Shown here one piece after another: positions 14,158 through 42,298 of a stretch of 64,000 nt of DNA. The position numbers and the translations under genes were made by a program. The number at the start of each line of letters is the position of its first letter. Position 1 is the first letter of the stretch. Source of the DNA: an uncultured Candidatus Peribacteria bacterium (GTDB lineage: Bacteria; Patescibacteriota; Gracilibacteria; UBA4473); assembly GCA_964526665.1 (NCBI GenBank), contig CAZGJL010000001.1:61298-125297 (forward strand). Reading direction: 5' to 3'. The notes beneath the pieces were generated by a model that was not told the origin of the DNA, ran no database searches, and was given only the letters and a program-made list of their open reading frames with translations.

Positions 14158-14700
14158 TTATAAAGTTATCCAATATCGTCGCGTTTTTCCCGCAGGAAGC
14201 CCTTCCAGTTCTTCGTCCTTTCTCTCAATAATGTTTTCCAAAATTCCGCCGTTTTTTTCTATCACTCGAGCAGAGCCAAGATTGTCATCATCACAGGTAA
14301 GTAATATTTTTTCGAACCCCATTTCTTTTGCTTTCAATAACCCTAATTTTAATATTATTGATCCTACTCCCTTACGACGAATAGATGGACGAAGTCCGAA
14401 TCCGATGTGTCCTCCTGCTCGCAATAACCCTGGAGTATCACGATGCCTTATCCTGATCTCACCAAACCACTCATCCCCCTTCACTAGCCACCACGACGAG
14501 GCGGGCACTTTGCCCTCTTGAAGATTAATTCCCTGACTATCATCCCTCCTTTGTTGCAAAAAATCGGCAAATCCTTCTTCGCTAATCGGAGTTTTCCCCG
14601 CTTGTGTAAAAACCTTATCGGCATATTGTCTCTTTTCTTCCTGAGCCTCAAGAAAACTTCTCTTATAATGAGCTGATGGTGCCACTAATTGCAGTGTCAT
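14158..14700 (-). CDS. GNAT-family N-acetyltransferase
   Basis: IGFGLRPSIRRKGVGSIIL...GSARVIEKNGG matches GNAT motif A (R/Q-x-x-G-x-G/A). Confidence 0.8.
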   Translation of the reverse strand: MTLQLVAPSAHYKRSFLEAQEEKRQYADKVFTQAGKTPISEEGFADFLQQRRDDSQGINLQEGKVPASSWWLVKGDEWFGEIRIRHRDTPGLLRAGGHIGFGLRPSIRRKGVGSIILKLGLLKAKEMGFEKILLTCDDDNLGSARVIEKNGGILENIIERKDEELEGLPAGKTRRYWITL

Positions 14701-14701
14701 T

Positions 14702-17700
14702 TTAAAGACTTTTCAATTCTGCCCGCAATGTTTTCAGCTCTGCCTCCGCATCGGCCAATTGTTGCTGTGTTTGGGCTACTAAATGTTCTGGAGCTTTGTC
14801 CGTATATGCTTTGTTCGAGAGCCTTCCCTTTAGCCCTGAAACTGATTTCTCTAGCGTTACAATTTCATTTTCCAGTCGTTTCTTTTCTGCTCCTGCGTCA
14901 AACGGAACTTCTACAAAAATCTCCATTCCGTTGACGAGAACCATGGCTGCCCGCTCCGGCTTGGAAGCCTTTTCTGCAATTTTCACGTCCGAAAGATTGG
15001 CTAAAACTTTCATCACCTCGGTTGTTTCTTGCAAAGAATTCGCCTTCTTTCCTGCTGAAATTTTCACAGAAATTTTGTCTTTCGGGTTCAATTTCTTTTC
15101 AGCCCGAACTTTTCGAATCTCCGTTACAATCTCCTGCATTGACGCAAATAGCTCCGCAGATTCTTTGTCTTTGGACTTTACTGTTGGAAAGTTTTGCTCG
15201 ATTAAGAGTGATTCTTTGGGCCCCAACTCTTCCCATAACGTTTCTGTAATAAATGGTACCAATGGATGAGCAAGCTTCAGTACCTCAAGAAAGACTCCAT
15301 ATAAAAACACTGGGTTCTTGTCGACCTTCTGTGTTTCAAGAAACCAACTGCAGAACTCATCCCACACGAAGTGATAAATCTCGTCTCCCGCCGCTGATAT
15401 TTCATACTTTTCTAGTTTTTGCGACACACTTGCAGAAACTTCTGACAACCTATGTAGCAACCACTTCTCCGATAAAGAATTTGGAATTGCTTCCTTGTTT
15501 GTAGTTTGTAGATTGTAATTTGCCGTTTGGAGTTGTACAAACCGTCCCGCATTCCACATCTTATTTACGAAATTTCGATATCCAGTGATCTTTGCTTTTC
15601 CTAAAGGAATCGGATTTCCTGCTGTTGCTCCAATAACTAATGACAAGCGAACCGCGTCTGCTCCCACTTCAGAAATAACTTCCAGTGGATCGATTCCATT
15701 TCCCTTTGACTTCGACATTTTCTGTCCGCTTTCATCGCAAACCAAACCGTGCAAATACACCGTATGGAATGGATATTTTCCCGTTGCATAACGTCCAAAC
15801 ATAATCATTCGCGCTACCCAAAAGAACAAAATATCATGTCCTGTTTCCAAGACATCTGTCGGATAAAACTTCTCAAAGTCTGGTGTTTTGTCTGGCCAGC
15901 CAAGCGTTGAAAAGGGCCACAATGCAGAACTAAACCACGTATCGAGAGTGTCCTTATCTTGAGTTAAATTTTCTCCAACAGGATCAGCTAAAACCATCAA
16001 CTCCCGAATTTCTCCTTTTTTCCATTTCCATTCTGAACGAAATCGAACAAATTTCTCTTCGTCTTCACTTCGGCTGAAATGAAATATCGCGGCAGTAAAA
16101 TTCTTGTGCCCAATAACCAATGCGTCTTCTTCTTTTTTTAATCGTTCCACGACGTTCTGTGCTCGACGAGAAATGTCGATCAATTCTTCGTCTTTTATTC
16201 CATCAAGCTGAATCTCGAATGGTCCTTCACGCTTCAAGTCCGCTTTTCCTGCCAATTCACTACTTGTGAATTCCGCCAATTCTGGCCAAACTTCAAATGG
16301 AATATTTAATTCTGCGGCAATAATTTCTGCTGTCTGTTGTCCGCGTTTCGAGTCAGAACAAATAATTTTTTTAATACCCCTTCCTTGTACCGTGTCTGCA
16401 ATTTTACGGGCATCCTGCAATCCGTTATCTGTTAATGGATAATCTCCTCCGATAATTTTTTTTGCGTTTGCTTCGCTCTCTCCGTGTCGAGCAAAAAGAA
16501 TATTTTTCTCTACCGGAAGATGGATATTTTCGTCCTTGTCATACCAGACCGGGATTCGATGTCCCCACCAAATCTGACGACTAATACACCAGTCTCGCAG
16601 ATTATCAATCCACTGGAAATAAACCTTTTCAAACCGCTTCGGAACAATTTTCACATGATCCTCTCGCACAGCGTCCTGCATCAACTTCTTTAGTGTTGTT
16701 TTCTTGCCCGTAAATTTGTCGATAAATTCTTTTTCCACAGAAATAAACCATTGCGGTGACAACATTGGTTCCACGATTGTTCCTGAGCGATAACATTTCG
16801 GAACTCGGTTTGGATGGGGACGTTTTTCGAACAAAAGTCCTTTTTCTTCCAACAATTCTCCTGCTCGTTTTCGCGCTTCGTGTACGGGCATTCCTGCACA
16901 TGGCCCGGCAATATCTGTCATCGTCCCGGCGAAATCTATTTTTTGAATTAATGGTAAGTCAAGACGCTGCGCGAGCGCAAAATCGTCTGGAGAGTGCGAG
17001 GCTGAAATCGTCATTGCCCCTGTTCCAAACCCTGGATCAATAATTTCATCCGCAATTACCCAAAACTTCCGCGGCCCGGCATACGTTTCTGCAGTAAATT
17101 CTTCCCCCACGAGCGCTTCTCCGAGCACCACTTCTTTTATTTGAAAATCCTTCCTCAGCTGTGTGTGTGCGTCGTAATATTTCTTGGTAACAATACATTC
17201 TTTTCCTTCAGCATTTTCTGCTCGCACGTACTCCGCCTCCGGATGAACTACCACTGGAGAATCTGCACATTTGGTCTCTGTTCGAACCGTTCCAATAAGA
17301 AACGGACCACACCAAAATTCATAGAAATCTGCTTGATTGTCATCCCATTCCACCTCATCATCGGCTAAAACTGATTGCGCTCCCACAGACCAGTTCACCA
17401 TCCGATGTCCTCGAACGATTAAGTCGTCTTCATAGAGTTTTTTGAAAATGAAATTCACGGAAAAATTACGTTCAGAATCAAATGTGTAAGCCTCTCTTGT
17501 CCAATCAAGATGCGCTCCCATTTTTTTAATCTGATGGGTGATACGATCGTGTTTTTCTCCGGCAAACTTACGACACTCGGTCAAAAACTCCTCTCGTGTC
17601 ATTTCCTCTCGTGTTTTCATTCCCAAGTGTTTGAGTACTACATTCTCCGTAGCAATTGCTGCATGATCTGTTCCGGGAACCCAGAGCGTTTCATGCCCGG

Positions 17701-17905
17701 TCATTTTTTTGTACCGAATCAAAATATCTTCCACTGCCAACATCGCCGCATGTCCCAGGTGTAATTGCCCGGTCACATTCGGTGGTGGGAGCGGAATTGT
17801 ATAGGACTTTTTTTCGGAAGAGGCATCAGCGGTCATCACCCCTGCCTTTTCCCAAGCAGCGTAAATGACGTCCTCTGAGCCGTTATGATCGTAATTTTTT
17901 TCCAT
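14702..17905 (-). CDS. valS: valyl-tRNA synthetase carrying an internal histidine-phosphatase-like insertion (1067 aa)
   Basis: Shows PPPNVTGQLHLGH (HIGH), KMSKSKGN (KMSKS), WCISRQIWWGHRIP, LDTWFSSALWPFSTLGWP, and a C-terminal coiled coil. It is about 165-190 aa longer than typical bacterial ValRS because of the insert at aa 468-640. Confidence 0.95.
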   Translation of the reverse strand: MEKNYDHNGSEDVIYAAWEKAGVMTADASSEKKSYTIPLPPPNVTGQLHLGHAAMLAVEDILIRYKKMTGHETLWVPGTDHAAIATENVVLKHLGMKTREEMTREEFLTECRKFAGEKHDRITHQIKKMGAHLDWTREAYTFDSERNFSVNFIFKKLYEDDLIVRGHRMVNWSVGAQSVLADDEVEWDDNQADFYEFWCGPFLIGTVRTETKCADSPVVVHPEAEYVRAENAEGKECIVTKKYYDAHTQLRKDFQIKEVVLGEALVGEEFTAETYAGPRKFWVIADEIIDPGFGTGAMTISASHSPDDFALAQRLDLPLIQKIDFAGTMTDIAGPCAGMPVHEARKRAGELLEEKGLLFEKRPHPNRVPKCYRSGTIVEPMLSPQWFISVEKEFIDKFTGKKTTLKKLMQDAVREDHVKIVPKRFEKVYFQWIDNLRDWCISRQIWWGHRIPVWYDKDENIHLPVEKNILFARHGESEANAKKIIGGDYPLTDNGLQDARKIADTVQGRGIKKIICSDSKRGQQTAEIIAAELNIPFEVWPELAEFTSSELAGKADLKREGPFEIQLDGIKDEELIDISRRAQNVVERLKKEEDALVIGHKNFTAAIFHFSRSEDEEKFVRFRSEWKWKKGEIRELMVLADPVGENLTQDKDTLDTWFSSALWPFSTLGWPDKTPDFEKFYPTDVLETGHDILFFWVARMIMFGRYATGKYPFHTVYLHGLVCDESGQKMSKSKGNGIDPLEVISEVGADAVRLSLVIGATAGNPIPLGKAKITGYRNFVNKMWNAGRFVQLQTANYNLQTTNKEAIPNSLSEKWLLHRLSEVSASVSQKLEKYEISAAGDEIYHFVWDEFCSWFLETQKVDKNPVFLYGVFLEVLKLAHPLVPFITETLWEELGPKESLLIEQNFPTVKSKDKESAELFASMQEIVTEIRKVRAEKKLNPKDKISVKISAGKKANSLQETTEVMKVLANLSDVKIAEKASKPERAAMVLVNGMEIFVEVPFDAGAEKKRLENEIVTLEKSVSGLKGRLSNKAYTDKAPEHLVAQTQQQLADAEAELKTLRAELKSL

Positions 17906-18023: not shown

Positions 18024-18755
18024 TTAGCGCCTAAAAAATCCTCGCTTTGTTTTTGATTGTTGATTCTGAATTTCCTCTGCATGCCGAATCTGCCTTTTTG
18101 AATCTTGGAATCGAATCTTGGGACTAAAGAAATGATCTTCATTCATTTTGTAGTAGATATTAAATTTCACCTCACCTTCGTGATCAATCCCCCATGCATC
18201 TATATCCCAGTTTTCAGGAAATTTATTCAACAAACAACTCGCTACTTTTATTTTATTCGTAAGGACGTCTTGTCTCGTGTATCCGCCACTCACAGAAGGA
18301 TTGTTAATGTTTTGACTATTCTTGTACCAAGAAACTCCTTCTTTAATTGCCTGCACCAAAGAATTAATATTATTGAGTGCGTAAAGGTTGATTGGCTTAG
18401 TTGCTTCCTCCGTCTGCTTGAGGTTTCCCAACATTTCTAGTGCTTTATTCATATATTCCACGTAATCAACTTCTGATAAGGAGTCGTAGAGTTTTGAATA
18501 TTTCTGCTGAAATTCTTCTTCCATTCTCTCTACTTTCTCGTCCGAGAGTTCTGTTAATTCCTCTTTTGTCCAATGTGCATCTTTCCCCAAAAGTTTTGGG
18601 AAATCGCTATTCAACTCCTCCTTTTCTTCTAGGACCGACAAAACATTTTCATGATACGCCTCCTTAATCGCGCCAATATCGTCTTCCACAGCCCCTGACC
18701 CCTCGTTTTCAAGGGGACTAACGTCTTCCTGTATCACTTCTTTAGCTTTAATCAT
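18024..18755 (-). CDS. hypothetical protein (243 aa, acidic)
   Basis: Long ORF with ATG start. No recognisable motif. Confidence 0.5.
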   Translation of the reverse strand: MIKAKEVIQEDVSPLENEGSGAVEDDIGAIKEAYHENVLSVLEEKEELNSDFPKLLGKDAHWTKEELTELSDEKVERMEEEFQQKYSKLYDSLSEVDYVEYMNKALEMLGNLKQTEEATKPINLYALNNINSLVQAIKEGVSWYKNSQNINNPSVSGGYTRQDVLTNKIKVASCLLNKFPENWDIDAWGIDHEGEVKFNIYYKMNEDHFFSPKIRFQDSKRQIRHAEEIQNQQSKTKRGFFRR

Positions 18756-33742: not shown

Positions 33743-35911
33743 TTAATCCATTTGTGATAAATGAAAAGCGTCTTTAATTTCTTCTTCTTGTCTTTGTAAA
33801 AACTCTTTCCATTCGCTTTGCATTGCCGAAAAATCCTCATTTAGTTTTCCTGTTTTCTCAAAAGTCTCTTCATTGATAATATATTGCGGAGCAAAATGAA
33901 CCGATCGTTTAACCGTCTTTACTTCATAACCAATATTTTGAATTTCTTTTACAAATACTTCGTAATCCGCATGAAGCAAATTCTGTTCGTTTTTCTTTGG
34001 TTTGTAGGCAATGATAACTGTTGTTGCAACTCCTGTTTCTCCAAAAGTATTGCTCGGTAAATCAAAAGTTCCGACAATTCTCATTTTAGACAAAAACCAT
34101 TTACGGATATTTTGCCATTCTTTGATACTTGCTATCGAATTAGAAAGAACAATCGCCATTCTTCCACCATCCTCAAGACACTTGTAAGCATTCTCTAAAA
34201 ACAAAACTCCCATATCCATTGAGTTTGGATATTTTTTATTTCCTTTCGCGTCTAAATCTGATTTTTCCTTAAATGTTTCGTAAAGCTCAACCGTTTCCTT
34301 GGGCAAATCCCATTTTCCATTTGCCCCCGTTTTTAAGTCTCTTCCTTTTCCAAAAGGGGGATTTGTCGCAATCATTTTAAATTTTTTCAAATCTTTACTT
34401 GAATCAGAAAGATGATTCCAGCTTATTGGATTATAATTTTTTGTAGTAAATTCGCCTTCTTTAAGCACACTTCCTCCTTGCAGAAGTTTCTGCGAAAGTG
34501 AATTCATTTGCTCAAGGACTGCTCCACCATCTCCATTGAGGACAAGATTAAGTTCCGCAAGCTTAAGATTGCTTCCCTCGAGATCAAAACCGTAAAAATT
34601 ACTCGCATTTGGTGGAAAATCAGGCTCTTCTCTGTGGGAATGACGAAAAGCCATTGCAGGAAAATCACAAATTCCACAACAAGGATCGCAAAGTTCTTCT
34701 CCTTTGATAGGATTTAAAAGTCGAATCATATTTTTTACCACAGGAATTGGCGTAAAAAATTGTCCCTTGTCTGCTTTTTGTTGTTCACTTCCAAAGTTAT
34801 TGAAAATGATTTGATTAAAACTTTCATTTTTAGCTTTAAGAATTGCCCTTTGCTGAAAAGTCTCAACAAGCGCGACAAGAAATTTCTCATCATTGCTTTT
34901 TGAGGGTCTAAATTCAGCATCGTACATAAACATCCTTTTTTCTCTGCCAAGAACCTTTGGATATTCTTTTTGGGCTTCCTTATAGAGATTGTTTATTCTT
35001 TCACGAAAACTTGTTTCAGCCAGTCCGTCTTTTCTTTTTTCGCCTGGAAGAATATAAAACTCTAAAAATGATTTATCTCTTTTGCTTCTTTTTTCATCAA
35101 AAACTTTGAGCGTTAAAAATTCAACAATCATTTCACGAAGAGGACTTTCTGGGCGAATACTGTCATTGGCTCTTTTCAATGAGTTCATTAAATCATTAAA
35201 ATTTGCTTCATCTATGGCATCAAGAGAATCAAGCTTTAATTTTGCGAGATCAGAAATACTTTCATTGTTCTCTATAAAATCTTGCTGACTTGGAAGATCA
35301 ACAAGTAAATCCCTTTTTTCTAAATTCCAACCAATTATTCCATCTTGTTGTAATTCATTTGTTTCGTTAAATCTTCTAATTTCAGAATTTCCAATTTTTT
35401 TGAAAAGCAAAATGTCTGAATGATCGTCAAAGTAAACCCCGAAAATTCTATCTTGCGAAGTATTGAGCTCCATTGCCGAACGAAGTTGATTCTCAATGGC
35501 ACTTTCAACAGATTTATTGTTTTTCTTTGTTTCAAAAATCACGAGAACATTTTGACGAATCTTTGCAAAGTTTTTACTCGATTTTGCTTGCTCATAATCT
35601 TGTAACCAATCTTTATTTTTGAAAACAACAATATCAGGATTAAGACTTTTTCCACCATTTCCTTTGGGAAAACCAAATTCAACACAAATATATTCTTTAT
35701 TATACATTCCACTTTGCACCATAGCCCACACAAAACGGGCTCGAATATATTCTTCACTAAAGACATTTTTTGTGTCCCTTGTTTTGGCATTAGAACAGAA
35801 AGATTCAACTTGAAGCTCGGTTTGATACCATTTTCGATCTATGTTTTCGAGTTCTGAATATTTTTCATCAAACTCTGCCAAATACGAACTGAATATTTTA
35901 GAATTGATCAT
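33743..35911 (-). CDS. fused PD-(D/E)xK endonuclease and gamma-class N6-adenine DNA methyltransferase (BcgI-like type IIB/IIG RM subunit)
   Basis: N-terminal ...VEFGF...NPDIVVF...VIFETKK (E78/D93/E127-x-K129). MTase motifs are GQFFTP, ELCDPCCGICDF (motif I) and IATNPPFG (motif IV). No helicase/HsdR is nearby. Confidence 0.8.
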   Translation of the reverse strand: MINSKIFSSYLAEFDEKYSELENIDRKWYQTELQVESFCSNAKTRDTKNVFSEEYIRARFVWAMVQSGMYNKEYICVEFGFPKGNGGKSLNPDIVVFKNKDWLQDYEQAKSSKNFAKIRQNVLVIFETKKNNKSVESAIENQLRSAMELNTSQDRIFGVYFDDHSDILLFKKIGNSEIRRFNETNELQQDGIIGWNLEKRDLLVDLPSQQDFIENNESISDLAKLKLDSLDAIDEANFNDLMNSLKRANDSIRPESPLREMIVEFLTLKVFDEKRSKRDKSFLEFYILPGEKRKDGLAETSFRERINNLYKEAQKEYPKVLGREKRMFMYDAEFRPSKSNDEKFLVALVETFQQRAILKAKNESFNQIIFNNFGSEQQKADKGQFFTPIPVVKNMIRLLNPIKGEELCDPCCGICDFPAMAFRHSHREEPDFPPNASNFYGFDLEGSNLKLAELNLVLNGDGGAVLEQMNSLSQKLLQGGSVLKEGEFTTKNYNPISWNHLSDSSKDLKKFKMIATNPPFGKGRDLKTGANGKWDLPKETVELYETFKEKSDLDAKGNKKYPNSMDMGVLFLENAYKCLEDGGRMAIVLSNSIASIKEWQNIRKWFLSKMRIVGTFDLPSNTFGETGVATTVIIAYKPKKNEQNLLHADYEVFVKEIQNIGYEVKTVKRSVHFAPQYIINEETFEKTGKLNEDFSAMQSEWKEFLQRQEEEIKDAFHLSQMD

Positions 35912-38763: not shown

Positions 38764-41256
38764 TTATTTCTTTTTCTTTGGATCCCCGTCTTTCTTTTTT
38801 TCTCCTTTAGGCGGTTCTTTCTCTTCATTTTTCCGTTTATTCTCCTCTGGACGAGCCCATCGAATAATTTTGTCTTCTACGACTGACCGCGGCGTAGCAT
38901 ATCGTTGTCGTGAAAAATTCCGAACTTTTGTCATCCGCATAACAGGATCTTCCTCGCTTTCAATTTTTGGTGGAGGCAATGCGTCTCCAGAAAAAACCTC
39001 GCTGGTAATCCCGTCCACCATTATGCGGTTGTATACCTTGTATTTTGGCAATCCTGCTAAGCTTGCTGGCAAAATCCGTTCTTCATCAAATTGTTCTGAT
39101 AAAACCTTGGCATCATCAATTCCCACCTGAAAGGAAATAAGCGATCCCACATTCCCAAACACCGCTGCACATACCTCCTCTGACATTTGTGCGATATACT
39201 GATTTGCCATAGTCAAATTCAGTTTATACTTACGTGCTTCTGACAAAATCGTAGCAAATGAGTCTGTCGCAAAATTTTGAAACTCATCTACGTACAAATA
39301 AAAATCTTTTCGTTCTTCTTGTGGGATATCCGCGCGACTCATGGCATCAAGCTGAAACTTAGTAATAAGAAGCGATCCCAGCATCGAGGAATTATCTTCC
39401 CCTAGTTTTCCCTTTGAGAGATTCGCGATTATAATTTTCCCGGTATCCATCGCAAAACGAATATCAAGAGACGACTTGGGTTGTCCTACAATATTTCGAA
39501 TTACTGGGGTTGAAAGAAATTGCCCCACCTTGTTTTGAATCGGACCCACTGCTTCTGCTAATTTTTGTGGTGCCAATGCACTAAATTCTGTTTCCCAAAA
39601 ACTTCGCACCATTGGATCTTCAACATAGTGGAGAATTTTGTATCGATAATTCTTATCTACCAACATACGAGTAATCCCCAACATTGTCGTATCTGGAGCC
39701 TCTACAAGAGCCAAAACAGTGTTTCGCAAAAAGTGTTCTAGCCGTGGACCCCATGAATCAATATTCAGCTTTTTAATCACTCCAATAAGCCCGGAAGCAA
39801 CCAGCCCTCTTTGTTCTGCGTTTTTCCCTTCTAATAAATTAAACGCAAGAGGGAACTCTCGATCTGCAGGATCAAAGAGAATTACATCGTTCGTTCGGTG
39901 CTTGGGAACGAGCTGCATCACTGCTTCTGCGAGATCTCCATGTGGATCAATTATCGCTACTCCTTTCCCTGCCATGATATCTGAATAAATCATATTCTCC
40001 ATGAGAGTAGATTTCCCCATTCCTGTTTTCCCGATTACATATACATGACGCCGTCGATCATCTGGACGAAGTCCGTATTCATCTTTCTGAAGACGGAAAT
40101 TTGTTTTCCCAACAAGCGTTACATCTTTTTCATCACTTCCTGGCAAATTTGCCGGCGGTTCAAGTTTTGGGGCGTTTACCCACTGAATTCGAGCCGTAGA
40201 AACGCTTTGGGTGGGCAAATGGAACATGGTTGCCAATTCTTCTTGAGACAGCACAAATGGCTTATCTGGTCGTCGTGCGACAATATTTCGAAATATTCGA
40301 GAATTCTTTCCTTCTTGTACGTTTCGAATAGTGAAATAATTTAATTGTGGCTGTGAAAACTGCTGGAATGTTCCGGCAATTTCTCGGAGTTTTGCCTCCG
40401 CGTGCAAAGACTCTTCGTCTGAATGAATATACGCCGCTTGAATATTTACAGCAAAAGCCTGACGAGAAATCTTATCATACGAAGCTCCATACACTGTCTC
40501 TCTGTCATGCCGTCCGGAAGAAGTCCTCTCGTCCACCTCACCTTCTGTTTCATCTGATCTGTCTCGAGATACGTCTGAGGAAAGAGATTTGCTGCTCCAA
40601 AGAAAAAACGCATGACATATAAACCAAAACGGAGATCTCCAAAGTCGCGTTGATCTATCAGGAGAAATTCGAATCCATTGATACATTTTTCGAAACCATT
40701 TCCATTGCCATACTCCCGTGCGAAAAAATCGACGAAGAGTTTTTTCTGCTACCTCGTTCCATCGCTTCCCAACAGGGGAAACCACCCACTGAATTACTGC
40801 AACGTCTCCTCTCGCGTGTAGGGTTGAAAGAGAAGATGTAATAGCTCCAAGCGGATCTTCAAACACGCGAGTTGTAGTGTCTTCAAACTGTGGATATCGC
40901 TTGAAGGGGAATACCCATGGTTCTTTTGGTTCCAAAGAAACGGAAAGAACTTTTTTGTTGGCAATAAGTTTCGTTGTAAAGAAATTACGAACCGTCTCAA
41001 TTTCTACTTCCGGATATTGTGCAAAAATCTGAGAGGAAACAAGCGTTCGTAAGTGCGTTGGCACTGCAACGTAAAAATAAATCATCCCATCCATGCTCGC
41101 TATTTCAAAACTTACTGATTCTTTTTTCCCGCTTCGCATTGCACGCAAAATCAATCCATGCAGACTGGCTAGGATTTGCTCAAATGCAACCGGCCCTTTT
41201 TCGTTCAGTTTTGGAACGGAAAGGCGAAGCACGATGCGAGAATTTTTGTTCGTCAT
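38764..41256 (-). CDS. TraD/VirD4/TrwB-like (FtsK-HerA superfamily) P-loop ATPase with a large N-terminal domain of unknown function
   Basis: Walker A VIGKTGMGKST and Walker B FYLYVDEFQNF. Start moved to MTNKNSRIVLRLSVPKL (ATG at 41256), because the longer ORF overlaps the upstream gene and is low-complexity. Confidence 0.78.
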   Translation of the reverse strand: MTNKNSRIVLRLSVPKLNEKGPVAFEQILASLHGLILRAMRSGKKESVSFEIASMDGMIYFYVAVPTHLRTLVSSQIFAQYPEVEIETVRNFFTTKLIANKKVLSVSLEPKEPWVFPFKRYPQFEDTTTRVFEDPLGAITSSLSTLHARGDVAVIQWVVSPVGKRWNEVAEKTLRRFFRTGVWQWKWFRKMYQWIRISPDRSTRLWRSPFWFICHAFFLWSSKSLSSDVSRDRSDETEGEVDERTSSGRHDRETVYGASYDKISRQAFAVNIQAAYIHSDEESLHAEAKLREIAGTFQQFSQPQLNYFTIRNVQEGKNSRIFRNIVARRPDKPFVLSQEELATMFHLPTQSVSTARIQWVNAPKLEPPANLPGSDEKDVTLVGKTNFRLQKDEYGLRPDDRRRHVYVIGKTGMGKSTLMENMIYSDIMAGKGVAIIDPHGDLAEAVMQLVPKHRTNDVILFDPADREFPLAFNLLEGKNAEQRGLVASGLIGVIKKLNIDSWGPRLEHFLRNTVLALVEAPDTTMLGITRMLVDKNYRYKILHYVEDPMVRSFWETEFSALAPQKLAEAVGPIQNKVGQFLSTPVIRNIVGQPKSSLDIRFAMDTGKIIIANLSKGKLGEDNSSMLGSLLITKFQLDAMSRADIPQEERKDFYLYVDEFQNFATDSFATILSEARKYKLNLTMANQYIAQMSEEVCAAVFGNVGSLISFQVGIDDAKVLSEQFDEERILPASLAGLPKYKVYNRIMVDGITSEVFSGDALPPPKIESEEDPVMRMTKVRNFSRQRYATPRSVVEDKIIRWARPEENKRKNEEKEPPKGEKKKDGDPKKKK

Positions 41257-41344
41257 ATTCACGAAATAGTGTACGCATTTAAAAGAAAAAAACAACGACC
41301 CCGCACTGCAGGGCCGCTGAATATTTTGTACTATTGTGAGAAAA

Positions 41345-42298
41345 CTATCCGCAACTTGCGTCTGAGTTTGCTCCTGATCCTTCCCATCCAAATCCTGCTG
41401 CTGGTGCTGTCGGTGACAACTCCGCTTCGCATTCTTCTGGTTGAGTTTCAAAAGAAGAACAAATCAGCTTTAACAAACTTGCTGCATCACGTCCAGATTG
41501 GACCTTTGCTCCATTGATAACCAATGATGGTGATCCCTGAACTCCGTATTCTTTATTTTCTGCATCATGAGTCATGAATTTAGGAAATCGGCCATTGAGC
41601 CATGATTCCTTGTTTTCAAGGTTCGCAGTAATATTAAATTCTGCGTCTGCTGCTGCTGTACATGAGGCCAATGCTCCTCTATCAATTTCTAGCTCTGCCA
41701 AACAAGTCTCTCCTGCTGTTACTCCTCCGTCTGTTCCGAGGAAGCACTCAAGATATGGCATGATTTTATCGTTCTGATCTTTATCAATACAATACTGGTT
41801 CAATTGCTCGTTTACTTCTTTTGCTGCATGCATTGCGTAGTTCACAAATTTCAAATTGAAATCAATCGTCTCTCCTAATTGTTTCACCACTGGAATAATT
41901 CCTTTTTCCATCTGTGTTCCAAATGGACAGTGACTCATAATAAAAAGATCCACTACTGGTTTCTCTGATTTTGAAACCTCTGCTAATGGTGGAGCCTCTG
42001 CCGCTGGCGCGTTTTCTTTTTCTGCTGTCATTTTGTCGATCTCCATCACGCTTGGGAAAAATACTTCTCCGTCGCCAGACATATACGAAACAATCTCTTT
42101 TCCGCCTGCGTCTACTGTAATCTTAAACATGCCGTTCTCTTGCTCAACTTCTTTAATAGTTGCTGTTGTCCCTGGAGACATCAACACTGTGTTAATGAAG
42201 CTCAATGCGCGCTCTTCCGCTGCGTCTTCTGTCATTTGTGTGCATCCTGCAAGAAATAATACGCTCATTGCAAGAGCCACTCCGGTAATTTTTTTCAT
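41345..42298 (-). CDS. lipoprotein with a thioredoxin-fold (DsbA/GILT-like) C-terminal domain
   Basis: Lipobox MSVLFLAGC. The later segment VDLFIMSHCPFGTQ...YLECFL resembles thiol-oxidoreductase-fold proteins. Confidence 0.6.
   Translation of the reverse strand: MKKITGVALAMSVLFLAGCTQMTEDAAEERALSFINTVLMSPGTTATIKEVEQENGMFKITVDAGGKEIVSYMSGDGEVFFPSVMEIDKMTAEKENAPAAEAPPLAEVSKSEKPVVDLFIMSHCPFGTQMEKGIIPVVKQLGETIDFNLKFVNYAMHAAKEVNEQLNQYCIDKDQNDKIMPYLECFLGTDGGVTAGETCLAELEIDRGALASCTAAADAEFNITANLENKESWLNGRFPKFMTHDAENKEYGVQGSPSLVINGAKVQSGRDAASLLKLICSSFETQPEECEAELSPTAPAAGFGWEGSGANSDASCG

What the first reader, a model, noticed from the sequence alone, without database searches (positions are those of the whole stretch)
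15986..16504. Histidine-phosphatase (PGAM/cofactor-dependent mutase-like) domain embedded inside valyl-tRNA synthetase
Seen in sequence: between WWGHRIPVWY (aa 446-455) and QDKDTLDTWFSS (from aa 649) the ValRS ORF carries about 193 aa. E. coli ValRS has about 28 aa at this position.

The insert begins ILFARHGESEANAKK... (R473-H474-G475, with Asn at +7, i.e. the RHGxxxxN signature). It later contains ...ALVIGHKNF (His600), matching the second catalytic His (SHG/GHxx motif) of the histidine phosphatase superfamily. The reading frame is continuous and the flanking synthetase motifs (HIGH, KMSKS, editing domain) are intact.

Established knowledge: this loop is a known variable site; some ValRS, for example Thermus, carry a small Zn module here. 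I am not aware of an aaRS with a phosphatase/mutase domain at this position.

Inference: this would couple tRNA charging or editing with a phospho-ester chemistry, for example on nucleotide, tRNA-end or alarmone-like substrates.
Basis: partly seen in the sequence, partly recalled or inferred. Interest (0 to 1): 0.72.

Follow-up and report, generated by a model that had tools for sequence, protein, structure and literature searches.

The report
Swappable phosphatase cassette inside valyl-tRNA synthetase
The essential enzyme that loads valine onto tRNA here carries a complete, apparently active histidine-phosphatase domain in a surface hairpin, and related uncultured CPR bacteria (Gracilibacteria/Peregrinibacteria group) swap, stack and lose such cassettes in both their valine and isoleucine tRNA synthetases, a pattern I could not find described in the literature.

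Summary
The valS ORF (14702-17905, minus strand, 1067 aa) has 193 aa (aa 456-648; window 15962-16540) between WWGHRIPVWY and QDKDTLDTWFSS. This insert is a branch-1 histidine phosphatase: Pfam PF00300 scores 90 bits against a cutoff of 21.7, the AF2 model has pLDDT 90, and Foldseek matches PFKFB, RosC, CobC and PGAM. The full catalytic set is present (R473, H474, N480, R521, E545, H600). The ValRS motifs are intact and the gene sits at the orthologous chromosomal locus.

The feature is not unique to this window. PF00300 is present in 72 of the top 120 ValRS relatives and 107 of 120 IleRS relatives from this CPR clade. Copies occur at several hairpin or loop sites, in arrays of 1-4 mutually divergent cassettes. 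Some IleRS also carry GNAT, HAD, P-loop kinase or DUF559 domains.

Presence is highly labile: at least 26 changes on 112 tips, and insert and core distances are uncoupled. Two co-occurring strains with 97-98% identical flanking DNA carry either the phosphatase or a Cys4 zinc knuckle.

The insert's dN equals that of the ValRS core, so it is under selection.

The substrate is unknown. My best guess is a tethered phosphomonoesterase acting on a phosphorylated tRNA end, nucleotide or synthetase-bound ligand. It is not a phosphoglycerate mutase, SixA or CobC equivalog. No literature description was found.

The parts
14702..17905 (-). valS ORF, 1067 aa, TAA stop. A housekeeping class Ia valyl-tRNA synthetase that carries the insert.
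   Evidence: tRNA-synt_1 E = 1.5e-127, Anticodon_1, Val_tRNA-synt_C; 1GAX E = 1e-155; conserved synteny.
16541..17905 (-). ValRS N-terminal part (aa 1-455): first half of the Rossmann fold with HLGH (17750-17761), the CP1 editing domain and CP2, ending in WWGHRIPVWY (16541-16570).
15962..16540 (-). Inserted cassette (aa 456-648, 193 aa) at the tip of the CP3 hairpin. It consists of stalk residues DKDENIHLPVEKN, the His_Phos domain, and LADPVGENLT.
   Evidence: insert-less relatives keep WYDEKGEI...NLxQD. DNA-level cassette boundaries in L025/L026.
16055..16501 (-). His_Phos_1 (PF00300) core, aa 469-617.
   Evidence: 90.3 bits. AF2 pLDDT 90.1, pTM 0.87. Foldseek probability 1.0 to 9mmh, PFKFB2/3, RosC, PGAM1, CobC, Rv3214.
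16481..16489 (-). R473-H474-G475. H474 is the predicted phospho-acceptor nucleophile.
   Evidence: H in 86/86 domain copies, R in 70/70 first copies.
16343..16345 (-). R521, the second phosphate-pocket arginine.
   Evidence: 70/70 first copies; pairs with the Arg of the bisphosphatase 'mkRtiqTAE' stretch in the printed alignment. I identify that Arg as Fru-2,6-BPase Arg307 from memory of the rat-liver numbering.
16271..16273 (-). E545, the predicted general acid.
   Evidence: pairs with the Glu of bisphosphatase 'lnEidag' (Glu327 by rat-liver numbering, from memory). E or D in 60 of the 74 copies that keep the R-H-R-H core (86 copies in all).
16106..16108 (-). H600, the second catalytic histidine (VIGHKNF).
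   Evidence: pairs with the His of bisphosphatase 'vicHqav'; His392 by rat-liver numbering, from memory; 60/70 first copies, Asn in one clade.
16193..16234 (-). Low-confidence segment aa 558-571. It occupies the position of the substrate-specificity region of histidine phosphatases.
   Evidence: pLDDT below 50. The role of this region in the superfamily is from established knowledge and was not tested.
14705..15961 (-). ValRS C-terminal part (aa 649-1067): QDKDTLDTWFSS, the second half of the Rossmann fold with KMSKS (15707-15721), the anticodon-binding domain and the coiled-coil arm.
16700..16723 (-). Second docking site (aa ~395-402), a small hairpin at the start of CP2. It is empty in this window but holds a His_Phos or DUF559 domain in relatives.

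Best explanation
This is the organism's housekeeping valyl-tRNA synthetase, and its CP3 hairpin carries an autonomous branch-1 histidine-phosphatase cassette at the tip. In relatives the same hairpin is plain or is a Cys4 zinc knuckle.

Shown:
- The domain is real, well folded and has the complete catalytic set.
- It is under purifying selection as strong as the synthetase core.
- It belongs to a clade-wide set of cassettes nested in ValRS and IleRS of Gracilibacteria/Peregrinibacteria-type CPR bacteria.
- These cassettes are gained, lost, replaced by unrelated alleles, moved between loop sites and stacked in arrays.
- One allelic swap between co-occurring strains has sharp DNA boundaries and no flanking repeats.

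Inferred:
- Cassettes are exchanged by homologous recombination that uses the highly conserved synthetase sequence as flanking homology.
- The domain works by the standard histidine-phosphatase mechanism. H474 attacks a phosphomonoester held by R473, R521 and H600, E545 protonates the leaving group, and the phospho-histidine is then hydrolysed.
- It acts as a tethered accessory enzyme on a phosphorylated ligand that visits class Ia synthetases.
- My preferred candidate is a tRNA 3' end carrying a 2'/3'-phosphate or pyrophosphate left by a ribotoxin or a tRNA-pyrophosphorylating toxin, which would make the tRNA chargeable again. A phosphorylated nucleotide or adenylate-like inhibitor is the second candidate.

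My sub-probabilities: real nested domain in a functional ValRS 0.97; exchangeable cassette system 0.9; catalytically active 0.75; acts on a synthetase-associated ligand 0.4; specifically tRNA-end healing 0.2. The overall confidence of 0.55 refers to the statement up to and including 'catalytically active, exchangeable accessory phosphatase cassette'. It does not cover the specific substrate.
For: Domain identity.

Catalytic residues: R473, H474 and R521 are invariant in 70/70 first copies. The full R-H-N-R-E-H signature is present in the window and in 44/70 first copies.

Selection: dN is 0.097 in the insert and 0.093 in the core between the window and L001, with synonymous sites saturated.

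Functional ValRS: the motifs are intact, the full-length model has pLDDT 87.7 and pTM 0.81 with confident stalk linkers, and the locus is orthologous.

Cassette behaviour:
- Site-1 lengths fall into discrete classes, and a second site exists.
- At least 26 state changes occur on 112 tips.
- Core and insert distances correlate at Spearman rho = 0.11, and sister genes carry unrelated cassettes.
- Tandem copies are as divergent from each other as random family members, and each is nearest to a cassette in another ValRS.
- L025 and L026 come from the same sample, have the same synteny and 97-98% identical flanks, but carry 584 nt of His_Phos versus 71 nt of Zn knuckle.
- There are a 109-aa remnant at site 1 in P0114 and apparent deletion scars in P0070 and P0085.

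Link to class Ia synthetases rather than a random host:
- All 24 large proteins (>520 aa) among the best 150 of 1.84 billion representatives that I classified by Pfam or by membership of the call-5/58 lists are ValRS or IleRS, or consist of His_Phos repeats only. A few 520-580-aa two-copy hits were not classified.
- IleRS copies form a different subfamily, so there were at least two recruitments.
- One IleRS carries HAD phosphatase domains instead, and five carry P-loop kinase (AAA_33/AAA_18) domains, four of them alongside His_Phos hits. This points to phosphoryl-transfer chemistry as the recurrent theme.
Against: - No substrate is identified. The domain matches no functional equivalog, and its closest structures are small-molecule phosphatases, not RNA or protein phosphatases.
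- To my knowledge, no histidine-phosphatase-superfamily enzyme is known to dephosphorylate RNA 3' ends.
- I could not obtain model coordinates, so whether the pocket faces the synthetic site or the tRNA path is untested.
- Cassettes sit at several different sites in ValRS and IleRS, which argues against a precise geometric coupling.
- Many close relatives do without the cassette, so it is dispensable.
- One clade lacks both the acid and the second His, so catalysis is not universally retained.
- GNAT and DUF559 insertions in the same proteins are not explained by an end-healing model.
- There are no PADLOC hits.
Confidence: 0.55

Rival explanations
1. Hitch-hiking housekeeping phosphatase. An ordinary broad-specificity metabolic phosphatase (PhoE/CobC-like, for example for nucleotide or sugar-phosphate salvage) is nested in a highly expressed essential gene only for expression or for horizontal spread. 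There is no mechanistic link to aminoacylation.
For: About 20 free-standing ~178-aa proteins belong to the same subfamily, and ~420-aa standalone tandem pairs are common. The best structural neighbours are small-molecule phosphatases. Insertion at several different sites suggests that geometry is unimportant. A standalone relative sits beside HAD hydrolases, not translation genes.
Against: Every large host I classified among the strongest hits is ValRS or IleRS and nothing else. Two phosphatase subfamilies, plus a non-homologous HAD phosphatase, were each recruited into class Ia synthetases. A stable metabolic function predicts stable inheritance, not the observed rapid turnover and allele replacement.
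Confidence: 0.2
2. Phosphate-binding module with little or no catalysis. The domain replaces the Zn knuckle as a structural or ligand-binding element, for example gripping a tRNA backbone or 5' phosphate, or a phosphorylated partner.
For: The invariant residues are those of the phosphate pocket (R473, H474, R521). The acid and the second His are lost together in one clade of about 10 proteins that nevertheless retain the domain. The cassette alternates with another CP3 module, the Zn knuckle.
Against: The window's copy and 44/70 first copies keep the complete catalytic signature, including the nucleophile and the acid. A nucleophilic His is not needed for binding alone. Arrays of 2-4 divergent copies are hard to explain by a single binding role.
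Confidence: 0.12
3. Built-in protein phosphatase. It would reverse inhibitory phosphorylation of the synthetase itself, for example Hip-type kinase toxins that phosphorylate the KMSKS-loop serine of class I synthetases. That toxin mechanism is recalled from knowledge of HipA/GltX and HipT/TrpS.
For: The superfamily includes protein phosphatases such as SixA, PGAM5 and Sts (my own knowledge; SixA is a weak hit). The sites mapped in detail lie between CP2 and the start of the anticodon-binding domain, on either side of KMSKS in sequence: ValRS sites 1 and 2, and IleRS P0302 about 70 aa after KMSKS. The other IleRS sites were placed only roughly from Pfam coordinates. Rapid turnover fits a conflict system.
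Against: No kinase toxin for ValRS or IleRS is known, and none was seen in the window (one search covers only some of the ORFs). The SixA equivalog score is far below cutoff (33.8 against 74.5). The structural neighbours are small-molecule enzymes.
Confidence: 0.08
4. Selfish or neutral in-frame insertion. Cassettes spread because they are embedded between universally conserved sequences that act as recombination arms, possibly helped by DUF559 nuclease-like inserts. They give the host no benefit.
For: The distribution is patchy, alleles are swapped, and remnants and deletion scars exist. DUF559/REase-like domains are inserted in-frame in the same genes. The insert's GC content is slightly lower than the rest of valS.
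Against: The insert's dN equals that of the essential core while synonymous sites are saturated. Pocket residues stay invariant although cassettes share only about 26-37% identity. There are no intein-type junction residues, and no nuclease lies within the cassette itself.
Confidence: 0.08
5. Assembly or gene-calling artefact: a chimeric contig, or a fusion of two separate genes.
For: Only that the window comes from an uncultured-type genome and read data cannot be inspected.
Against: The reading frame is continuous. Identical architecture appears in more than 70 independent assemblies, including a closed 962-kb chromosome. The composition is similar to the rest of the gene. The ValRS halves flank the domain exactly at a hairpin.
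Confidence: 0.01

Closest known systems
Histidine phosphatase superfamily, branch 1 phosphatases (PFKFB fructose-2,6-bisphosphatase domain, CobC alpha-ribazole phosphatase, PhoE, Rv3214, RosC, riboflavin-pathway HFP 9mmh)
   Same: They share the fold, the RHG nucleophile motif, the two-Arg/two-His pocket and the Glu acid. The best sequence and structural matches are mostly phosphatases rather than mutases, although PGAM structures also match.
   Different: This domain is nested inside a synthetase hairpin instead of being free-standing or terminally fused. It reaches no equivalog cutoff. It is only about 17-27% identical to the listed solved structures. Its substrate is unknown.
Zinc-knuckle CP3 module of Thermus ValRS/IleRS, and the variable CP3 subdomain of IleRS (PMC7191050)
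   Same: It occupies the same insertion point, between the WWGH-IP strand and DTWFSS. CP3 is described as topologically variable among IleRSs and as bearing a Zn motif in Thermus IleRS. Ten of the 112 relatives scored carry a Cys4 knuckle at this site.
   Different: Here the roughly 25-aa module is replaced by a 193-aa enzyme domain, and in relatives by arrays of up to 3-4 such domains.
IleRS with an embedded N-acetyltransferase domain (NCBIfam NF040702 'ileS_w_GNAT')
   Same: It is a curated precedent for a class Ia synthetase carrying an extra enzymatic domain. GNAT domains co-occur with His_Phos in 14 of the 16 GNAT-bearing IleRS relatives listed.
   Different: It involves a different enzyme class and a different synthetase. 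I found no curated model or paper for a phosphatase-bearing ValRS or IleRS.
Bifunctional RNase H / acid phosphatase Rv2228c (NCBIfam NF005567)
   Same: A CobC-like histidine phosphatase is fused to a nucleic-acid enzyme. It gives a weak sequence hit.
   Different: That fusion is terminal, not an internal insertion. The partner is unrelated, and the score is far below cutoff (35.8 against 326).
RNA end-healing enzymes (T4 and bacterial polynucleotide kinase-phosphatase). This is a functional analogy recalled from memory, not a homology claim.
   Same: They combine a phosphatase with a P-loop (AAA_33-type) kinase. Four of the listed IleRS relatives carry both a His_Phos and an AAA_33/AAA_18 domain.
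   Different: The phosphatase folds differ (HAD or metallophosphoesterase in the known healers). No ligase partner was seen, and no RNA substrate has been shown.
Inteins
   Same: Both are in-frame insertions in conserved essential genes with a patchy distribution.
   Different: There is no Cys/Ser/Thr at the N-junction, and no His-Asn followed by a nucleophile at the C-junction. The junction residues are D456 and T648|Q649. There are no Hint or homing-endonuclease domains in the cassette. The domain is expected to remain in the mature protein.

Membership tests
Histidine phosphatase superfamily, branch 1 (Pfam PF00300) | Profile score above the curated gathering threshold | tested here: met
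   90.3 bits for the excised insert and 85.6 bits within the whole protein, against a cutoff of 21.7.
Histidine phosphatase superfamily, branch 1 (Pfam PF00300) | RHG motif with the nucleophilic His at the end of strand 1 | tested here: met
   R473-H474-G475 follows strand E465-473. His is present in 86/86 copies.
Histidine phosphatase superfamily, branch 1 (Pfam PF00300) | Second Arg, second His and an acidic proton donor completing the pocket | tested here: met
   R521, H600 and E545 pair with the Arg, His and Glu of the fructose-2,6-bisphosphatase alignment (Arg307/His392/Glu327 by rat-liver numbering, from memory).
Histidine phosphatase superfamily, branch 1 (Pfam PF00300) | Alpha/beta/alpha fold matching solved members | tested here: met
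   AF2 pLDDT 90.1. Foldseek probability 1.0 and TM 0.62-0.70 to PFKFB, RosC, PGAM, CobC and Rv3214.
Histidine phosphatase superfamily, branch 1 (Pfam PF00300) | Phosphatase activity through a phospho-histidine intermediate | not testable with these tools
   Needs an enzyme assay with an H474A control.
Cofactor-dependent phosphoglycerate mutase (dPGM) | Equivalog-level sequence match | tested here: not met
   NF038349 56.8 bits against a cutoff of 225; GpmB 47.1 against 261; TIGR01258 21.4 against 81.7.
Phosphohistidine phosphatase SixA | Equivalog-level match (TIGR00249) | tested here: not met
   33.8 bits against a cutoff of 74.5, covering only the N-terminal ~80 residues.
Alpha-ribazole phosphatase CobC | Equivalog-level match (TIGR03162 / NF011580) | tested here: not met
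   54.1 bits against 162.9, and 53.8 against 250.
Valyl-tRNA synthetase (class Ia) | Catalytic, anticodon-binding and ValRS-specific C-terminal arm domains, with HIGH and KMSKS motifs | tested here: met
   (tRNA-synt_1, Anticodon_1, Val_tRNA-synt_C; HLGH 49-52; KMSKS 729-733); 1GAX E = 1e-155.
Valyl-tRNA synthetase (class Ia) | Aminoacylation and editing activity retained despite the insert | not testable with these tools
   Indirect support only: invariant core columns, a confident full-length model and the orthologous locus. The editing-site motif deviates from Thermus across the whole clade.
Intein | Nucleophile (C/S/T) at the first insert residue, and His-Asn followed by C/S/T at the C-terminal junction | tested here: not met
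   The insert starts at D456 and ends ...NLT648 followed by Q649. No Hint domain appears in Pfam.
Known anti-phage defence proteins (PADLOC-DB) | Match to any defence-system model | tested here: not met
   no hits for the insert, the whole ValRS, or the two neighbouring genes tested.

The most novel reading that the evidence does not exclude
The connective-peptide hairpins of class Ia synthetases (ValRS and IleRS) in Gracilibacteria/Peregrinibacteria-type CPR bacteria work as in-frame 'cassette docks'. The system would be integron-like but operate at the protein-domain level. Diverse accessory enzymes (histidine and HAD phosphatases, P-loop kinases, GNATs, nuclease-like DUF559) are stacked and exchanged between strains by recombination, with the universally conserved synthetase sequence serving as portable homology arms. 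The phosphatase cassettes would act as synthetase-resident antidotes that reverse toxin- or phage-inflicted phosphorylation or pyrophosphorylation of tRNA 3' ends, or of the synthetase itself.
Probability: 0.2. Interest if true: 0.92.

Novelty: new variant of a known kind. Interest (0 to 1): 0.78.

Why it matters
Extra domains on aminoacyl-tRNA synthetases are best known from eukaryotes, where they add regulatory functions, and they are usually stable lineage markers. This case differs in three ways:
- A catalytic phosphatase sits inside the catalytic body of a bacterial synthetase.
- It recurs in two paralogous synthetases through independent recruitments.
- It behaves as a fast-turnover, stackable cassette that differs even between co-occurring strains.

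If the phosphatase acts on tRNA ends, adenylate-like inhibitors or the synthetase itself, it would be a new kind of translation-apparatus self-protection. If it does not, it would still show that universally conserved genes can act as vehicles for horizontal exchange of accessory domains in genome-reduced, largely uncultured bacteria.

Either way it provides a concrete, testable set of proteins: the same ValRS scaffold with a phosphatase, with a zinc knuckle, or with a plain hairpin.

Tried and rejected
- **Genome scan with the insert alignment.** The search for related loci on A2 failed because no stretch was conserved enough. I used the whole ValRS instead, so the taxonomic survey of insert-bearing genomes rests on source labels and is incomplete.
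- **Complementary distribution.** I tested whether the phosphatase sits in either ValRS or IleRS but not both. Pairing genes by shared contig length shows many genomes with both, some with only one, and one with neither, so I rejected this.
- **The GNAT gene directly downstream of valS as part of the system.** It is present only in the window and in L004. It is absent from the closest genome, L001. It is not BLAST-similar to the GNATs embedded in IleRS, and it has no NCBIfam or PADLOC hit. I therefore report it only as a passing observation.
- **Intein or self-splicing element.** Rejected on the junction residues.
- **Recent tandem duplication as the origin of the multi-copy arrays.** Rejected, because within-protein copies are as divergent as random family members.
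- **A phage or defence-island link.** tblastn against 50,697 phage records gave only weak generic hits. The BFVD fold search gave only generic viral histidine phosphatases. PADLOC gave none.
- **Absolute dN/dS.** Synonymous sites between the window and L001 are saturated (pS about 0.72), so only the comparison of dN between insert and core is usable.
- **Four-state parsimony count.** One search returned the same number as the binary count, which I do not trust. Only the binary HP versus non-HP count is used.
- **Literature.** Ten full-text searches found no description of the fusion.


Full report
**1. The observation**

The window contains one long ORF on the minus strand, 14702..17905, encoding 1067 aa.
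- WWGHRIPVWY = aa 446-455
- the RHG motif = R473-H474-G475, with N480
- ALVIGHKNF contains H600
- QDKDTLDTWFSS starts at aa 649
- HLGH = aa 49-52 and KMSKS = aa 729-733

The segment between the two ValRS motifs is 193 aa, at window 15962-16540. Pfam finds tRNA-synt_1, Anticodon_1 and Val_tRNA-synt_C, and in between them His_Phos_1 (PF00300). The excised insert scores E = 1.7e-25 and 90.3 bits against a gathering cutoff of 21.7.

A sequence search of the PDB gives fructose-2,6-bisphosphatase domains at E = 4e-11, followed by CobC, PhoE and SixA. In the printed alignment the RHG, Arg, Glu and His positions pair with R473/H474, R521, E545 and H600. I equate these with bisphosphatase Arg257/His258, Arg307, Glu327 and His392 from memory of the rat-liver numbering.

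GC content and skew across the gene show no discontinuity.

**2. Structure**

An AF2 model of the full protein, built from a 66-sequence alignment, has mean pLDDT 87.7 and pTM 0.81.
- The insert is confident throughout except aa 558-571.
- The 10-residue blocks that contain the two stalk segments score 90-93. I read this as a rigid beta-stalk rather than a floppy tether, but no PAE was available to confirm it.

The insert modelled alone has pLDDT 90.1 and pTM 0.87. Foldseek against the PDB gives probability 1.0 and TM 0.62-0.70 to several histidine phosphatases:
- a riboflavin-pathway histidine-family phosphatase (9mmh)
- PFKFB2/3 bisphosphatase domains
- RosC
- PGAM1
- Rv3214
- CobC

NCBIfam places the insert in no functional equivalog: dPGM 56.8 against a cutoff of 225, CobC 54.1 against 162.9, SixA 33.8 against 74.5.

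**3. Where it sits**

The alignment to Thermus ValRS (1GAX) places the site at the CEDC...Zn-knuckle region, about residues 417-445. In IleRS nomenclature this is the CP3 subdomain, which lies between CP2 and the second half of the Rossmann fold. CP3 is described as topologically variable among IleRSs and zinc-bearing in Thermus IleRS (PMC7191050).

Insert-less relatives keep the pattern 'WYDEKGEI...NLxQD'. The domain is therefore grafted onto the tip of a beta-hairpin.

**4. It is a clade-wide feature**

PF00300 is recorded in 72 of the 120 best ValRS homologues. Where a source gives a name, they are labelled Gracilibacteria, Peregrinibacteria or Peribacteria. The closest genome is a closed 962-kb 'Candidatus Gracilibacteria' chromosome, with 87% identical ValRS. 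The synteny MscS-valS-S4-RadA is conserved there, so this is the housekeeping valS at its normal locus.

An HMM built from the insert shows the following:
- Site-1 lengths fall into discrete classes: 15-35 aa (no domain), 189-222 aa (one copy, 59 proteins), 381-432 aa (two copies, or one copy plus an unknown ~215 aa) and 598 aa (three copies).
- A second docking site lies about 60 aa upstream, at the tip of a small hairpin at the start of CP2 (Q residues ~395-402). Seven proteins have a copy there.

P0142 carries four copies. P0114 retains a 109-aa remnant at site 1.

**5. Conservation and selection**

Across 86 copies, H474 is invariant. In the 70 first copies, R473 and R521 are also invariant. 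The full R-H-N-R-E-H signature is found in the window and in 44/70 first copies.

One clade of about 10 proteins has Ser or Ala at the acid position and Asn in place of the second His, but keeps the R-H-R pocket.

Between the window and L001, synonymous sites are saturated (pS about 0.72). Nonsynonymous divergence is 0.097 in the insert and 0.093 in the essential core. The cassette is therefore under purifying selection comparable to the synthetase itself.

**6. Cassette dynamics**

On a neighbour-joining tree of the insert-masked ValRS core (112 tips), presence or absence of the domain needs at least 26 changes. Shuffled states need 35.6 on average, with a minimum of 28.

Among the 112 proteins, site 1 is a phosphatase in 66, a plain hairpin in 35, a Cys4 zinc knuckle in 10 and a remnant in 1. 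Two plain hairpins (P0070 and P0085) look like deletion scars, because they keep the 'IHL...P.G.DLTQ' edges of the cassette.

Core and insert distances are almost uncorrelated (Spearman rho = 0.11). Sister genes carry unrelated cassettes, for example P0019 and P0026 at core distance 0.08 and insert distance 0.74.

Copies within one array are as divergent from each other (0.55-0.82) as random family members (median 0.70). Each is nearest to a cassette in a different ValRS, including across site 1 and site 2. The arrays are therefore stacks of distinct cassettes, not recent duplications.

The clearest case is P0064 against P0080:
- The two contigs come from the same metagenome (ERZ25074195), at 4.6x and 20x coverage.
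- They have identical gene order.
- The flanking DNA is 97.3% and 98.3% identical.
- 584 nt encoding the phosphatase in one contig is replaced by 71 nt encoding a Cys4 knuckle in the other.
- The boundaries are sharp and there are no flanking repeats.

This is an allelic polymorphism between co-occurring strains. It is most simply explained by homologous recombination using the conserved synthetase flanks, which is an inference.

**7. It is also in IleRS, together with other enzymes**

An exhaustive profile search of 1.84 billion representative proteins found 439 hits below 1e-30. The best 150 comprise:
- ValRS
- free-standing proteins of about 178 aa
- free-standing tandem pairs of about 420 aa
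- a set of large proteins that Pfam identifies as tRNA-synt_1 + Anticodon_1 + DUF5915

I recall that DUF5915 is the C-terminal domain of type-2 IleRS. That these proteins are IleRS is supported by the source names and by the ileS equivalog hit for P0302 (895 bits against a cutoff of 621). They carry 2-3 His_Phos copies, at the site homologous to ValRS site 1 and at other loops.

A homologue search with one such IleRS shows PF00300 in 107/120, GNAT domains in 16, AAA_33/AAA_18/Zeta-toxin-type P-loop kinases in 5, DUF559 in 5, HAD phosphatase in 1 and an alpha/beta hydrolase in 1.

IleRS-embedded copies cluster with the standalone tandem pairs. ValRS-embedded copies cluster with the ~178-aa singles. 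That implies at least two independent recruitments.

- Both carry the domain in at least seven genomes, including the 962-kb chromosome closest to the window.
- Only IleRS carries it in four genomes.
- Only ValRS carries it in one genome.
- Neither carries it in one genome.

In the 962-kb genome the IleRS cassette lies about 70 aa after KMSKS. It is only 32-34% identical to the ValRS cassette.

All 24 large hosts (>520 aa) among the top 150 that I classified are ValRS, IleRS or His_Phos-only repeat proteins. A few 520-580-aa two-copy hits were not classified.

**8. Mechanism**

Shown:
- It is a complete, well-folded histidine-phosphatase domain under selection.
- It sits on a hairpin stalk of an otherwise intact, orthologous ValRS.
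- It belongs to an exchangeable cassette family that is specific, so far, to ValRS and IleRS.

Inferred from the superfamily's established chemistry: H474 attacks a phosphomonoester held by R473, R521 and H600, E545 protonates the leaving group, and the phospho-histidine is then hydrolysed.

What the substrate is remains open. Three facts point to phosphoryl-transfer chemistry being selected in the context of these synthetases:
- Two phosphatase subfamilies were recruited into two class Ia synthetases.
- A non-homologous HAD phosphatase occupies IleRS in one relative.
- P-loop kinases accompany the phosphatase in some IleRS.

The rapid turnover and the stacking of divergent cassettes resemble conflict or resistance modules more than core metabolism.

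My preferred guess, at about 0.2, is removal of a blocking 2'/3'-phosphate or pyrophosphate from tRNA 3' ends. Alternatives are a phosphorylated nucleotide or inhibitor, the synthetase's own phosphorylated loop, or no coupling at all.

Against any tight coupling:
- The cassettes occupy several different sites.
- Many close relatives lack them.
- One clade has probably lost catalysis.
- The nearest solved structures are small-molecule enzymes.
- To my knowledge, no member of this superfamily is known to act on RNA ends.

I could not access model coordinates to test the orientation of the pocket.

**9. Novelty**

Ten full-text searches found no description of a phosphatase-bearing ValRS or IleRS. 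The architecture does exist in public databases. JGI's automated annotation names one such IleRS 'isoleucyl-tRNA synthetase/phosphohistidine phosphatase SixA/...GNAT'. NCBI curates a model for IleRS with a GNAT domain, NF040702.

I therefore rate this as a new variant of a known kind, namely domain accretion in synthetases. The cassette-exchange behaviour is the most novel aspect.

**10. Verdict**

The 'mutase' label and the implied uniqueness are not.
- Interest 0.78.

Noticed in passing
window 14158-14700 (-): A 180-aa GNAT acetyltransferase (Acetyltransf_3/Acetyltransf_1) starts 2 nt downstream of valS and is probably co-transcribed. It is present in L004 (50% identity) but absent from the closest genome, L001. 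It is not BLAST-similar to the GNAT domains embedded in IleRS relatives, and it has no NCBIfam or PADLOC match.
   Followed up: partly
window valS aa 294-308 (about 16982-17026, -): The editing-domain motif reads GTGAMTISASHSPDD, against GTGALKVTPAHDPLD in Thermus ValRS. Thermus K270 and D276 correspond to T299 and S305 here, while H304 and D308 are invariant. The deviation is shared by the whole clade, with or without the insert. I recall these Thermus residues as lining the threonine-editing pocket. The functional consequence is unknown.
   Followed up: partly
relatives P0071 (aa 442-548), P0059, and IleRS P0300, P0313, P0314, P0364, P0365: DUF559 / REase_MTES_1575 nuclease-like domains are inserted in-frame in ValRS (at the CP2 hairpin site in P0071) and in IleRS of the same clade. 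They may act as homing-type elements that promote cassette mobility.
   Followed up: partly
relatives P0067 (aa ~472-687), P0093 (aa ~699-915), P0108 (aa ~703-916): About 215 extra residues next to the His_Phos copy at site 1 have no Pfam match. This may be an uncharacterised cassette type.
   Followed up: no
IleRS relatives P0348, P0349, P0365, P0370, P0371, P0373, P0338: Other enzyme domains are embedded in IleRS: two HAD phosphatase domains in P0348, which has no His_Phos; AAA_33/AAA_18/Zeta-toxin-like P-loop kinase domains in P0349, P0365, P0370, P0371 and P0373; an alpha/beta hydrolase in P0338; and a Y1 transposase-like hit in P0371.
   Followed up: partly
L027 (contig carrying the standalone homologue P0122): The genes around the free-standing 178-aa phosphatase are called as many tiny ORFs of 34-69 aa. 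This suggests a genome using an alternative genetic code (UGA as a sense codon) that was mis-called with the standard code.
   Followed up: no
window 38764-41451 (-) and 33743-35911 (-): One ORF is a TraG/VirD4/HerA-like coupling ATPase (DUF87, TrwB_AAD_bind, TraG-D_C). The other is an Eco57I-type N6 DNA methylase. Together they may mark a mobile or defence-related region about 16-24 kb from valS.
   Followed up: no
window 18024-18755 (-): A 243-aa ORF lies immediately upstream of valS, between valS and the MscS gene. It has no Pfam or PADLOC hit, and tblastn did not find it in L001 or L004, although the flanking genes are conserved there.
   Followed up: partly
window long ORFs (whole window): Stop codons of reading frames longer than 250 aa are TAA 20, TAG 6 and TGA 2, and long ORFs stay intact under table 11. 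The organism therefore uses the standard code, although its relatives are labelled Gracilibacteria, some of which recode UGA.
   Followed up: partly
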